Shown here piece by piece: positions 42,436 to 45,306 of a stretch of 64,000 nt of DNA. Position 1 is the stretch's first letter, and each line of letters starts with the position of its first letter. Both the position numbers and the translations under genes were made by a program. Source of the DNA: the human T2T-CHM13v2.0 reference genome, Homo sapiens. Under the pieces are notes generated by a model. It made no database searches, was not told the origin of the DNA, and saw only the letters and a list, made by a program, of their open reading frames with translations. The stretch is taken from NCBI GenBank assembly GCA_009914755.4, contig CP068257.2, forward strand, positions 14,560,001 through 14,624,000, written 5' to 3'.

Positions 42436-43272
42436 TGTTTACATGCATAATTTACTGCAAGACTTGGAATGAAACTTCTTAGCTTTGCTTGGTCTATATA
42501 ATATGCTTCATCTTAAGCAAGCTCTACATTACTAGTGATGTTAAATTTCAGTAAATGGAAAAATTCCTTGAGAATACTATATTCTCTTTCATTATCCAAA
42601 TACCTCTAATTTTACAATTTGATCAGTGTTCCTGCCCGTGTACAACCCAATTGAATTACATTGGATGTAATTGCCAGTTTTTAAAATATATCTTTGGATT
42701 AAAAGATAAATATTATGAAGGACCCTGTCTCATTGTGCCATCAGTATATCATGGCTGAGACTATCTCAGATAAGATAATGTATTAGTCGTCTGCTTCCTA
42801 GGAAAATGAACACTAAAATGAAATATGGAAGAAATGGATTCTGAGTGTTAAATGTGAGAAACAAGGTTTATACTGAACATTCTAAGCCATTGCCAAATGT
42901 CAACTTTAAACTTCAGATCAAGAGATTCAGAATTCTACAGTGTCAGGTATGGTAGATGTTCTCACACCAAGGTGAACACAAGAATCAACCGAGTGATTTA
43001 TTTAAAAGAGAGTCCTGAGTGCCACCCCCAGAAATTCAGATTTTTAAATTTTTAAATAAATCTGAGTGTGTCTTTTAAACTTACATTTTGTACCAGCAAC
43101 TCCAAGTTATTCTAATATAGGTAATCCACAGATAAAAAATATTTGTTAGAACGTATTTTTTAAAAATATTGTTTAGACCATAAATATTTTAGCCTTTTCT
43201 TTTTTTTAACAAAATACAAATTTATACTTTTTAGACAGCAAAAAAAAAAAAAAAATTGTTTAAAGAAACTCT

Positions 43273-43573
43273 GGCCGGGCGCGGTGGCACACGCTTGTAC
43301 CCAGCACTTTGGAAGGCCAAGGCGGGTGGATCACCTGAGGTCAAGAGTTTGAGACCAGCCTGGCCAACATGGTGAAACCCCATCTCTACTAAAAACACAA
43401 AAATCAGCCGGCCATGGTGGTGTCCGCGTGTAATCCCAGCTACTCAGGAAGCGGAGGCAGAAGAATTGCTTGAACCTGGGAGACGGAGGTTGTGGTGAGT
43501 CGAGATCGCACCACTGCACTCCATCCTGGGCAACGGAGAGAAACTCAGTCTCAAACAAAACAAAGCAAAAACA
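43273..43573 (+). mobile_element. Alu SINE (young-looking, near consensus: ggccgggcgcggtggc...), sense, TSD AAACTCT at 43266-43272 and 43572-43578
   Basis: ggccgggcgcggtggcacacgcttgtacccagcactttggaaggccaaggcgggtggatcacctgaggtcaagagtttgagaccagcctggccaacatggtgaaaccccatctctactaaaaacacaaaaatcagccggccatggtggtg ... ending with an A-rich tail caaacaaaacaaagcaaaaaca. ORF 43331..43558(-) is an Alu translation. Confidence 0.96.
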
Positions 43574-43590
43574 TAAACTCTAAATTCCGT

Positions 43591-43645
43591 TATGTATGTA
43601 TGTATGTATGTATGTATATATGTATGTATGTATGTATGTATGTAT
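43591..43645. repeat. (TATG)n microsatellite, about 13 units, derived from the A-tail of the antisense Alu to its right
   Basis: tatgtatgtatgtatgtatgtatgtatatatgtatgtatgtatgtatgtatgta. Confidence 0.95.
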
Positions 43646-43943
43646 TTTTTGAGGCACAGTCTTGCTCTGTGTCGCCCAGGCTGGAGTGCAGTGGTACAAT
43701 CTCAGCTCACTGCAGCCTCCACCTCCCAGATTCAAGCGATTCTCATGAGTAGAATGCCTCAGCCTCCTGAGTACCTGCGATTACAGGTGTGCACCACCAT
43801 GCCCAGCTAATTTTTGTATTTTTAGTAGAGACGGGGTTTCACCATGTTGACCAGGCTGGTCTCGAACTCCTGACCTCAGATGATCCACCCACCTTGGCCT
43901 CCCAAAGTGCTGGGATTACAGGCGTGAGCCACCTCACCCAGCC
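43645..43943 (-). mobile_element. Alu SINE, full length, antisense, TSD CTAAATTCC at 43579-43590 and 43944-43955 enclosing Alu plus (TATG)n tail
   Basis: ttttttgaggcacagtcttgctctgtgtcgcccaggctggagtgcagtggtacaatctcagctcactgcagcctccacc ... ending gggattacaggcgtgagccacctcacccagcc. ORFs 43492..43752 and 43592..43810 are repeat-derived. Confidence 0.96.
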
Positions 43944-45306
43944 TAAATTCCTTTAAAACTATATTTATTTCTTAAGAACCTGATCACTAGTCTTTCTGTC
44001 AGCTCTTTCTCTTTTTATTTTTTATTTTTGGTCATTTCTGGTTTATATTTTAGAATGTGCTACTATAGATTTGCTGGGATGATTCTGATTTTAATCAATT
44101 TTTTTTCCTTCTTGTACCATAAAAAATTGAAATGTCCCAGAAATTTTGAATACATCTAGAATCTAGACTGTATCTCCCAGATTCCTATTCATATAAAAAT
44201 TTTCAGGCAAATTGTCCCTCTTTGGGGTTCACAAATCATGATTGCAAGAGCTAGAAGTAAACCACTGTAGAATATTTTAGAGGCTAATAGTTTAGAGGCT
44301 AAAGATGTCTCAGAGAATATTGGTCTACCCCTGTCCTATGGATGAATTCACTGTTTAGCAAAGCACTGGACGTGTATTTTGTCCTAGAGTATCCCAAAAG
44401 GGTATACTGAATCATTTCTAAAAACAGTCAGTGTATTAGGAATCCATGTGCAAGTAACAGAAGTCCTTAGTACAGGAGCATAAATAGAAGCATATTTACT
44501 TGTCTCATACTACAAGGAGCCTGAGATTAGGCCACAGGCTAATATAGACACTCAAGAGTGCCTTCAAGATTTCGGACTCTTTTTTTTTTTTTCTGCTCTG
44601 TATTGCGCTGACTACTATTACCCTCATGCTAACTCCTTCTTAGGTAGATGATTGCTACACTTCTAGGTCCCATATCCTCAGGATAACTACCTGGGAAAGA
44701 AGGAAAGAACAAATTAGCGAAAAGCAATGCTCTGTTTTTCAATTTGGAAAGAGATGGCCCTTTCAACTTCATGTTATTACCCAAAACTGTGTCACTTTAT
44801 CTGCTCTGGCTTTATGAGAAGCTAAAAAATTGAGTAATTTTACCTGGGTACATTGATGTCCCAAACTAAATCAGGGTTCTGACAGGAAAAAAGTAGGAAT
44901 ACATACTGTATCAGAAACTGGAATTGTTTGCTACAGATAGTATATCTATAAAGAAAAATGTGTAAGAAAGACTCAGAACAATTAATGTAGACATAAAGAT
45001 GTAGATTATTATTTGCCTGTTACATGTATTAACCGTTTGGTAGACTATTTTTTGGGAGACATCGTTGTGAGTCTTCATAATGCTCATCTCACTCACCCAT
45101 GACAGCAAAATGGGGGTTGGTCGCTAATTATTAGGTAAAACATTCTAAACTAACAGGAAAAAGGAATCCTTGAGTTAATCTTGGGAGGATAACAGTGGGT
45201 GAAAGACGATGATAAATGCGCAAAACTGCTAAAGTTTAAATGATTGGCACTTTCAGGATGGTAGCAGTCAATAAGAATATGACTGCTGTGTAGTTAACCT
45301 CTGCAC

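What the first reader, a model, noticed from the sequence alone, without database searches (positions are those of the whole stretch)
43262..43956. Tail-to-tail inverted Alu pair from two independent insertions into overlapping target sites, separated only by an A-tail-derived (TATG)n repeat
The Alu at 43273-43573 (+) has TSD AAACTCT and the Alu at 43645-43943 (-) has TSD CTAAATTCC. The 3' TSD of the first (43572-43578) directly abuts the 5' TSD of the second (43579-43590). The reconstructed pre-insertion site is ...tttaaagaaactct|aaattcctttaaaac, so both elements hit the same few base pairs of a TTTAAA-rich endonuclease hotspot in opposite orientations. The (TATG)13 array is the mutated A-tail of the antisense copy. 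Closely spaced inverted Alus, here about 70 bp apart, can form long hairpins in DNA, which is a known source of instability and rearrangement. If transcribed they form dsRNA that is a substrate for ADAR A-to-I editing. The first Alu looks near-consensus and young, so the pair may be polymorphic or lineage-specific.
Basis: seen in the sequence. Interest (0 to 1): 0.5.

Follow-up and report, generated by a model that had tools for sequence, protein, structure and literature searches.

The report
Ordinary old inverted Alu pair
Two old primate Alu elements sit tail-to-tail about 70-100 bases apart after inserting separately at neighbouring endonuclease sites, a real but common and well-understood arrangement, not a young or unstable one.

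Summary
The structure is real. An AluS (+) lies at 43273-43552 with a degenerate A-tail at 43553-43574. An AluS (-) lies at 43651-43943 with a T6 run and a (TATG)13.8 array at 43591-43650. Each has its own target-site duplication (TSD): AAACTCT, and (C)TAAATTCCKTTA matching 12/13. The middle copies overlap by 1-2 bases, so the empty site reconstructs to TTGTTT|AAAGAAACTCTAAATTCCTTT|AAAAC. That site carries two CTTT|AAA nick sites about 21 nt apart on opposite strands. Private mutations (26 vs 22), private indels and separate TSDs argue for two independent L1-driven insertions, not an inverted duplication. The microsatellite lies inside the Alu2 TSDs, and eight other Alus in the window carry tail-adjacent microsatellites, so a tail origin is well supported. 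The claim of a near-consensus, young Alu1 is wrong. Both copies are about 10-12% diverged AluS elements and typical for the window, so they are probably fixed. The arms are 84.6% identical, 70-98 bp apart, with a longest perfect match of 17 nt. Published yeast data predict little DNA fragility for such a pair. A single transcript could fold into a roughly 280-bp imperfect duplex, a plausible ADAR substrate, but transcription could not be tested. Verdict: an ordinary, already known kind of feature, of low interest.

The parts
43259..43264 (.). Left TTTAAA. On the bottom strand it reads CTTT|AAAC and is the inferred first-strand L1 endonuclease nick site for Alu1.
   Evidence: Sequence reading and TTTAAA list. 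That this was the actual nick site is inferred.
43266..43272 (+). 5' copy of the Alu1 TSD, AAACTCT. It can be extended to AAAGAAACTCT from 43262, matching 9/11.
43273..43552 (+). Alu1 body, full-length AluS (Sq/Sx-like). It has 30-33 substitutions and a 2-bp deletion against consensus, and retains 13 CpG.
   Evidence: 7SL-like hits.
43553..43574 (+). Degenerate A-rich tail of Alu1, AAACAAAACAAAGCAAAAACAT.
43575..43581 (+). 3' copy of the Alu1 TSD, AAACTCT. Its last 1-2 bases (CT) also begin the left copy of the Alu2 TSD.
43580..43592 (-). Tail-side copy of the Alu2 TSD, CTAAATTCCGTTA. It matches the other copy at 12/13 positions.
   Evidence: (family D2).
43591..43645 (-). (TATG)13.8 microsatellite with one TATA interruption. 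On the Alu2 sense strand it reads (TACA/CATA)n. It is the distal part of the Alu2 A-tail turned into a tetranucleotide repeat.
   Evidence: TRF. It lies inside the TSDs. Analogous tail microsatellites occur elsewhere in the window.
43645..43650 (-). Residual T6, which is A6 on the Alu2 strand. This is the proximal part of the Alu2 tail.
43651..43943 (-). Alu2 body, full-length AluS (Sx-like). It has 29 substitutions, a 9-10 bp quasi-palindromic insertion near 43745-43754 and a 2-bp insertion, and retains 6 CpG.
43943..43955 (-). Head-side copy of the Alu2 TSD, CTAAATTCCTTTA. The first C may instead be the first base of the Alu.
43952..43957 (.). Right TTTAAA. On the top strand it reads CCTTT|AAAAC and is the inferred first-strand nick site for Alu2.
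   Evidence: That this was the actual nick site is inferred.

Best explanation
Two separate L1-mediated, target-primed reverse-transcription events placed two AluS elements in opposite orientations into one short AT-rich stretch of a primate genome.

The empty site was ...ATTGTTT|AAAGAAACTCTAAATTCCTTT|AAAACT.... It carries two palindromic TTTAAA motifs about 21 nt apart. Alu1 (+) was primed from a bottom-strand nick at the left motif, giving the TSD (AAAG)AAACTCT. Alu2 (-) was primed from a top-strand nick at the right motif, giving the TSD (C)TAAATTCCTTT(A). Both TSDs run inward and their inner ends coincide within 1-2 nt, so the two tails face each other.

The order of the two events cannot be read from the sequence. 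The distal part of the Alu2 A-tail later mutated and expanded by slippage into (TACA)n, which reads (TATG)n on the + strand. The Alu1 tail simply degenerated.

Both copies are old, about 10-12% from the AluS consensus, and are therefore probably fixed. As DNA the pair is expected to be stable today. If both copies lie in one transcript, the RNA can fold into a roughly 280-bp mismatched duplex of the kind ADAR edits.

Shown: element identity, orientation, TSDs, divergence, independence of the two copies, and folding potential. Inferred: the exact nick sites, the tail origin of the microsatellite, age and fixation, and any RNA-level effect.
For: - Alu identity and orientation.
- TSDs and the reconstructed site. 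The chance of such flanking repeats is 0.7% for a 7-mer and 0.01% for a 12-mer.
- Independence: Alu1 against reverse-complemented Alu2 is 84.6% identical. There are 26 and 22 private substitutions. The 7 shared ones are all CpG transitions. Indels are private to each copy.
That window consensus differs from my typed AluSx at 18 positions, which look like CpG decay by eye (not tabulated).
- Target: both inferred nicks read CTTT|AAA, a close variant of the TTTT|AA preference of the L1 endonuclease (PMC3215922). The locus is TTTAAA-rich.
- Tail microsatellite: it lies between the TSD and the T6 run. Tail-adjacent microsatellites occur at eight other Alus in the window. The literature describes tail-born di- and tetranucleotide repeats (PMC3812793).
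- Fold: RNA -453 kcal/mol, z -52.6. DNA -234 kcal/mol, z -35.6.
Against: No orthologous or empty-site sequence could be obtained (ORF look-ups). The reconstruction and the age therefore rest on internal evidence only.

The perfect part of TSD1 is short at 7 nt. With that length alone the nick would fall at AAAG|AAAC, which is less canonical. The 11-nt version needs two mismatches.

The two copies give discordant age signals. Alu1 has 7.9% non-CpG divergence but 13 CpGs left. Alu2 has 3.8% non-CpG divergence but only 6 CpGs left. Relative age and insertion order therefore stay open.

Confidence: 0.9

Rival explanations
1. The pair arose in one step, as an inverted duplication or fold-back copy of a single Alu, or by two Alu RNAs primed at the two nicks of one staggered break.
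For: The arms are strongly complementary, and the inner TSD ends coincide within 1-2 nt.
Against: Each arm has its own TSD pair. There are 26 and 22 private substitutions, the shared ones are only recurrent CpG transitions, and the indels are private. By geometry (inference), simultaneous priming from a top-strand nick at the right site and a bottom-strand nick at the left site would give a head-to-head pair with tails outward and one 21-nt TSD. That is the opposite of what is seen.
Confidence: 0.02
2. The (TATG)n array did not grow in place from a pure A-tail. It was copied from a source Alu whose tail already carried TACA repeats, or it is a short 3' transduction of the source's flank.
For: The array lies inside the TSDs, so it arrived with or after Alu2. 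A preprint on Alu-driven transduction was returned by the search (title and abstract only, not read).
Against: The layout is a proximal A6 followed by a distal microsatellite that runs to within 4 nt of the TSD, with no terminal A-run. This is the usual picture of in-place tail decay. The same layout recurs at several other Alus of the window with different motifs.
Confidence: 0.1
3. One reading: Alu1 is a recent, near-consensus insertion next to an older Alu2, so the pair is lineage-specific or polymorphic and a present-day hotspot of hairpin-mediated rearrangement.
For: Alu1 keeps an intact GGCCGGGCGCGG start and has the most CpGs (13) of any Alu in the window.
Against: Alu1 has 30-33 substitutions and a 2-bp deletion, and 7.9% non-CpG divergence. 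It fits AluS better than AluY (88-89% against 85%), and its tail is short and degenerate. The arms are 84.6% identical, 70-98 bp apart, with a longest perfect run of 17 nt. In yeast, 86% homology lowers rearrangement about 58-fold, and a change of spacer from 12 to 100 bp lowers recombination about 300-fold (PMC10164571).
Confidence: 0.03

Closest known systems
Closely spaced inverted Alu pairs (iSINEs / IRAlus), for example the NICN1 3'UTR pair
   Same: The NICN1 pair is tail-to-tail, made of AluS-family copies, about 70 bp apart and about 81% identical. It forms dsRNA and is heavily edited when transcribed (PMC5080714). The same paper reports that about 7% of human Alus sit in inverted pairs within 300 nt, with head-to-head and tail-to-tail equally common.
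   Different: Here the transcription status and gene context are unknown, and no editing data could be consulted.
Alu pairs sharing target sites (CLIQUEs and 'TSD' insertion preference of Cook et al. 2011, PMC3215922)
   Same: Elements inserted by the L1 endonuclease are catenated through their TSDs or EN-rich flanks. More than half of Alu, L1 and SVA sequence lies in such clusters.
   Different: Insertions within or next to an existing TSD mostly give direct pairs. The inverted-to-direct ratio is about 0.07-0.08 for spacers of 24 bp or less. By origin this pair belongs to that rarer inverted class, with about 18 nt between the two tails. As annotated today its spacer is about 70 bp, a range in which all four orientations are about equally common.
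Unstable inverted Alu repeats (Lobachev et al. 2000, as summarised in PMC10164571 and PMC3215922)
   Same: Same kind of structure: two inverted Alus able to fold back.
   Different: The fragile cases are highly similar arms with spacers of about 12-20 bp. This pair is 84.6% identical, 70-98 bp apart, and mismatched on average every 6-7 nt.
Microsatellites born from Alu poly(A) tails (review PMC3812793)
   Same: A tetranucleotide repeat sits at the distal end of an Alu tail, inside the TSDs.
   Different: Only the motif, (TACA)n. The mechanism appears the same.

Membership tests
Alu SINE, AluS subfamily group | A dimeric 7SL-derived element of about 280 bp with an A-rich linker and a 3' A-rich tail | tested here: met
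   Both copies align over the full length of the consensus. Each monomer gives a 7SL/Metazoa_SRP hit below the gathering score. Both tails are present.
Alu SINE, AluS subfamily group | S-type rather than Y- or J-type sequence | tested here: met
   Alu1 identity: 89.3% to Sq, 88.2% to Sx, 84.9% to Y, 82.1% to Jo. Alu2 identity: 89.7% to Sx, 89.0% to Sq, 85.7% to Y, 85.1% to Jo.
Young or polymorphic Alu (AluY / Ya5 / Yb8 type) | Divergence from consensus of at most a few percent, Y-lineage diagnostic bases, and a long pure A-tail | tested here: not met
   Both copies are 10-12% diverged and fit S better than Y. The tails are a degenerate 22-nt A-rich run and an A6 run plus microsatellite.
L1 endonuclease / TPRT insertion | Flanking TSD of about 7-20 bp | tested here: met
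   TSD1 is 7 nt exact (9/11 if extended). TSD2 matches at 12/13.
L1 endonuclease / TPRT insertion | First-strand nick at a TTTT|AA-like site at the tail-side edge of the TSD | tested here: met
   Both inferred nicks read CTTT|AAA (preference cited from PMC3215922). For Alu1 this holds only with the 11-nt TSD reading.
Hairpin-prone, fragile inverted Alu repeat (Lobachev criteria) | High arm identity (about 94-100%) and a spacer of about 20 bp or less | tested here: not met
   Arm identity is 84.6%. The spacer is 70 bp between tails and 98 bp between bodies. The longest perfect run is 17 nt. Thresholds are from PMC10164571.
ADAR-edited inverted-repeat Alu dsRNA | Two oppositely oriented Alus close enough to pair within one RNA | tested here: met
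   The predicted duplex spans both Alus, at -453 kcal/mol and z -52.6.
ADAR-edited inverted-repeat Alu dsRNA | Both Alus lie in one transcript, and cDNA shows clustered A-to-G mismatches | not testable with these tools
   No reference-genome mapping, annotation or RNA-seq is available here. No Rfam family reached its gathering score anywhere in the window.

The most novel reading that the evidence does not exclude
By origin this is one of the rare surviving inverted pairs whose tails were only about 18 nt apart. At that time the A-tail and the T-tail were complementary and the arms were still very similar, so the locus was a near-palindrome. The conversion of the Alu2 tail into a non-complementary (TATG)n spacer, together with decay of the Alu1 tail, may be what stabilised the locus and allowed it to persist. 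On this reading, microsatellite birth acts as a rescue route for inverted-repeat loci. A genome-wide excess of tail microsatellites in tail-to-tail pairs, compared with head-to-head or direct pairs, would test it.
Probability: 0.08. Interest if true: 0.3.

Novelty: already known. Interest (0 to 1): 0.08.

Why it matters
It matters little on its own. Inverted Alu pairs within a few hundred bases involve several percent of all human Alus (PMC5080714). Their origin by TPRT, their tail-born microsatellites, their editing by ADAR and the conditions for their instability are all well described.

The locus is a clean textbook example, because both TSDs and both endonuclease sites can still be read and the empty site can be rebuilt. 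It would gain practical relevance only if mapping shows it lies in a transcript (an editing, dsRNA-sensing or exon-skipping context), or if the (TATG)n proves to be a useful polymorphic marker.

Tried and rejected
- Orthologous or empty-site sequence. Exact look-ups of three ORFs of the locus found nothing: 43492-43752, which spans both tails, 42555-42758 and 43789-43956. Exact scans for the right flank (AAGAACCTGATCACTAGTCTTTCT) found nothing in metagenome contigs or in bacterial and archaeal genome contigs. A scan for the Alu1-empty junction (AAAGAAACTCTAAATTCCKTTA) found nothing in metagenome contigs. These collections are not expected to hold primate loci, so the zeros carry no weight either way.
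- The exact look-ups suggest that primate non-coding ORFs are not in that collection, any hits would be swamped by Alu-derived ORFs, and divergence already answers the age question.
- Rfam at gathering threshold gave nothing in the whole window. At the E-value threshold it gave only 7SL-like hits and hits to what I recognise as Alu- or repeat-derived miRNA families (mir-1268, mir-1285, mir-3135, MIR4208; mir-297 on the TATG array). All were far below their gathering scores, and I rejected them as genes.
- The Lobachev et al. 2000 paper is not held. Its figures are quoted second-hand from PMC10164571 and PMC3215922.
- I considered and rejected three alternatives: a single-event origin (on geometry and private mutations), a TSD flanking the composite as a whole (none exists), and a (TATG)n already present at the target (it lies inside the Alu2 TSDs).
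- Insertion order is not resolvable. Both orders give the same final sequence, and the CpG and non-CpG divergence signals disagree.
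Full report
**What is there**

The window is AT-rich (34.7% GC) primate-type DNA with about 17 Alu loci and one degenerate L1. The finding's coordinates read as follows:

| Coordinates | Feature |
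|---|---|
| to 43265 | left flank ...A16 TTGTTTAAAG |
| 43266-43272 | AAACTCT, 5' copy of TSD1 |
| 43273-43552 | Alu1 body, + strand |
| 43553-43574 | degenerate A-rich tail AAACAAAACAAAGCAAAAACAT |
| 43575-43581 | AAACTCT, 3' copy of TSD1 |
| 43580-43592 | CTAAATTCCGTTA, tail-side copy of TSD2 |
| 43591-43645 | (TATG)13.8 |
| 43645-43650 | T6 |
| 43651-43943 | Alu2 body, - strand |
| 43943-43955 | CTAAATTCCTTTA, head-side copy of TSD2 |
| from 43956 | right flank AAACTATATT... |

The repeat finder reports the inverted arms as 160 nt at 88% and 99 nt at 76% complementarity. Tandem Repeats Finder reports the tetranucleotide array at 96% matches. At a relaxed threshold Rfam places 7SL-like (Metazoa_SRP) matches on each Alu monomer, on the expected strand. 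This is an independent check that these are dimeric 7SL-derived SINEs.

**More than chance**

An exact 7-mer repeated at Alu-like spacing occurs at 0.66% of random positions of this window, and a 12-mer at 0.01%. The fold-back of the 695-nt segment lies 52.6 (RNA) and 35.6 (DNA) standard deviations below dinucleotide shuffles.

**What the two copies are**

| Copy | AluSq | AluSx | AluY | AluJo |
|---|---|---|---|---|
| Alu1 | 89.3% | 88.2% | 84.9% | 82.1% |
| Alu2 | 89.0% | 89.7% | 85.7% | 85.1% |

Because those sequences rest on memory, I also built a majority consensus from 11 other Alus of the window. It differs from my AluSx at 18 positions, which look like decayed CpG sites by eye (I did not tabulate them). 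Alu1 and Alu2 are 86.4% and 88.7% identical to it, in the middle of the window's range of 79-92%.

Alu1 carries 30-33 substitutions and a 2-bp deletion. Alu2 carries 29 substitutions, a 9-10-bp quasi-palindromic insertion and a 2-bp insertion. From general knowledge of Alu subfamily ages, AluS elements with about 10% divergence date to roughly 30-45 million years ago. Both are then probably fixed across catarrhines. This is an inference and was not tested here.

**One event or two**

Alu1 against the reverse complement of Alu2 is 84.6% identical. Against AluSx there are 26 substitutions private to Alu1, 22 private to Alu2 and 7 shared. All seven shared ones are CpG transitions, which recur independently. 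Each copy has its own indels and its own TSD pair.

I also considered a concurrent double priming at one staggered break. A top-strand nick at the right site plus a bottom-strand nick at the left site would leave two 3' overhangs. Reverse transcription from them would yield a head-to-head pair with tails outward and one shared 21-nt TSD. That is the opposite of what is observed. Two sequential, independent insertions is the only reading that fits.

**The target**

There is one refinement. The priming nicks were not at the same few bases.

- For Alu2 the tail-side edge of the TSD is CCTTT|AAAAC on the top strand.
- For Alu1, if the TSD is read as AAAGAAACTCT (9/11), the nick is CTTT|AAAC on the bottom strand.

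Both are close variants of the TTTT|AA preference of the L1 endonuclease (PMC3215922). They lie about 21 nt apart on opposite strands. What coincides, within 1-2 nt, are the inner ends of the TSDs, that is, the second-strand nicks.

With only the 7-nt perfect TSD the Alu1 nick would be the less canonical AAAG|AAAC. This ambiguity remains.

The neighbourhood is truly rich in TTTAAA. There are 7 in the 655-nt reconstructed locus, against 1.4 expected from the window's own mean. The window itself holds 135, against 88 ± 9 in shuffles. Either order of insertion gives the present sequence, and the age signals disagree: Alu1 has 7.9% non-CpG divergence with 13 CpG left, and Alu2 has 3.8% with 6 CpG left. 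The order therefore stays open.

**The (TATG)n array**

The array lies between the tail-side TSD copy and the residual T6 of Alu2. It is therefore part of what was inserted or of what grew from it. It cannot have been a microsatellite already present at the target.

The window supplies its own controls. Tail-adjacent microsatellites flank the Alus at these positions:

| Alu | Tail-adjacent repeat |
|---|---|
| 13889 | (TA)29 + T38 |
| 15703 | (GT)16 |
| 29083 | TA/TG/TATG/CA mix |
| 33665 | (TA)n (TG)16 ...ATACATACA T9 |
| 35113 | (CTTT)12 |
| 45388 | T49 |
| 46988 | (TTTTG)7 |
| 4965 | (AAAAT)5.6 |

Reviews describe this route for di- and tetranucleotide repeats (PMC3812793). Birth in place from the tail is the best reading. 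Inheritance of an already modified tail from the source copy cannot be excluded without orthologues.

**Consequences**

*DNA.* Published yeast work, quoted from PMC10164571, reports three effects:

- Widening the spacer from 12 to 20 bp lowers inverted-Alu recombination about 40-fold.
- Widening it from 12 to 100 bp lowers it about 300-fold.
- Lowering homology to 86% or 75% lowers rearrangements about 58-fold or about 1,000-fold.

This pair is 84.6% identical, with 70 bp between the tail ends and 98 bp between the bodies. The longest perfectly complementary run is 17 nt. It should be stable in duplex DNA. The same paper notes that such pairs can still interact within long single-stranded regions.

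*Genome-wide frequency.* All four pair orientations are about equally frequent for spacers of 51-500 bp (PMC3215922). About 7% of Alus sit in inverted pairs within 300 nt, with head-to-head and tail-to-tail equally common (PMC5080714). The same 64-kb window holds a second close inverted pair, at 33665-33947 (-) and 34003-34196 (+), 55 bp apart. A Poisson estimate expects about 0.4 pairs within 100 bp per window of this Alu density.

*RNA.* If both copies are in one transcript, the predicted structure pairs them over their whole length. The NICN1 3'UTR pair is tail-to-tail, 70 bp apart and 81% identical. It is a close, experimentally edited counterpart (PMC5080714). Whether this locus is transcribed could not be determined.

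**One mildly interesting point**

By origin the two tails were only about 18 nt apart (43575-43592). A fresh A-tail and a fresh T-tail are complementary to each other. The pair therefore began in the spacer class of 24 bp or less, where inverted pairs are strongly under-represented, at an inverted-to-direct ratio of about 0.07-0.08 (PMC3215922). Decay of one tail and conversion of the other into (TATG)n removed that complementarity. Whether this helped the locus survive is speculation. I give it as the most novel reading not excluded, at low probability.

**What could not be done**

None of the available collections holds primate genomic loci. Look-ups and scans for orthologous or empty sites returned nothing, and those results carry no information either way. 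Mapping to a reference genome, primate alignments, structural-variant catalogues and editing databases are the decisive checks. They are listed under next steps.

**Verdict**

This is a real feature, correctly recognised in outline. It was mis-dated and its instability was over-interpreted. It is an ordinary member of a well-known class.

Noticed in passing
window 20300-26500 (+): A degenerate, nearly full-length L1. ORF1-like reading frames lie at 21201-22227, and ORF2-like fragments (endonuclease and reverse-transcriptase region) at 22954-25262. There is a GC and AT-skew bump at 20-26 kb. I identified it by eye from the translations, not by a family search.
   Followed up: no
window 33665-33947 (-) and 34003-34196 (+): A second closely spaced inverted Alu pair in the same window. 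This one is head-to-head, 55 bp apart, AluJ-like, and the right copy is 5'-truncated. It shows how common such pairs are.
   Followed up: partly
window 13791-13887, 15635-15699, 29000-29079, 33517-33660, 35058-35109, 45307-45355, 46941-46982, 5246-5273: Almost every Alu in the window has a microsatellite or a long homopolymer at its tail: (TA)29+T38, (GT)16, a TA/TG/TATG/CA mix, (TA)n(TG)16, (CTTT)12, T49, (TTTTG)7 and (AAAAT)5.6. I used these as an internal control for the tail origin of (TATG)n.
   Followed up: partly
window 43135-43268: An A16 run at 43240-43255 lies 17 bp upstream of Alu1. The motif AAAAATATTGTTTAGA occurs three times (about 43135, 43162 and 43250). This may be a third, heavily 5'-truncated retro-insertion of about 77 bp with TSD ATTGTTTA(A)AGA, or just local low-complexity duplication.
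   Followed up: no
window 44389-44570 and 45837-46019: Two direct copies, 79% identical over 183 bp, on either side of the Alu at 45388-45623. They are probably two copies of an old interspersed repeat, which I did not identify.
   Followed up: no
window 43745-43754: A 9-10-bp insertion (ATGAGTAGAA on the + strand) inside Alu2. It forms a quasi-palindrome with the adjacent ATTCTC and looks like a templated, strand-switch insertion.
   Followed up: no
window 43273-43552 compared with 43651-43943: The age signals of the two copies disagree. Alu1 has twice the non-CpG divergence of Alu2 (7.9% against 3.8%), yet it keeps 13 CpGs against 6, the most of any Alu in the window. Possible causes are different germline methylation histories, different source copies, or chance.
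   Followed up: partly
window 13889-14190 (-): This is the only Alu in the window that fits AluY best (90.8%). It still carries a pure T38 tail plus (TA)29. That is rather diverged for an AluY with such a long tail, and may hint at a non-human catarrhine source or a subfamily not among my four consensus sequences.
   Followed up: no
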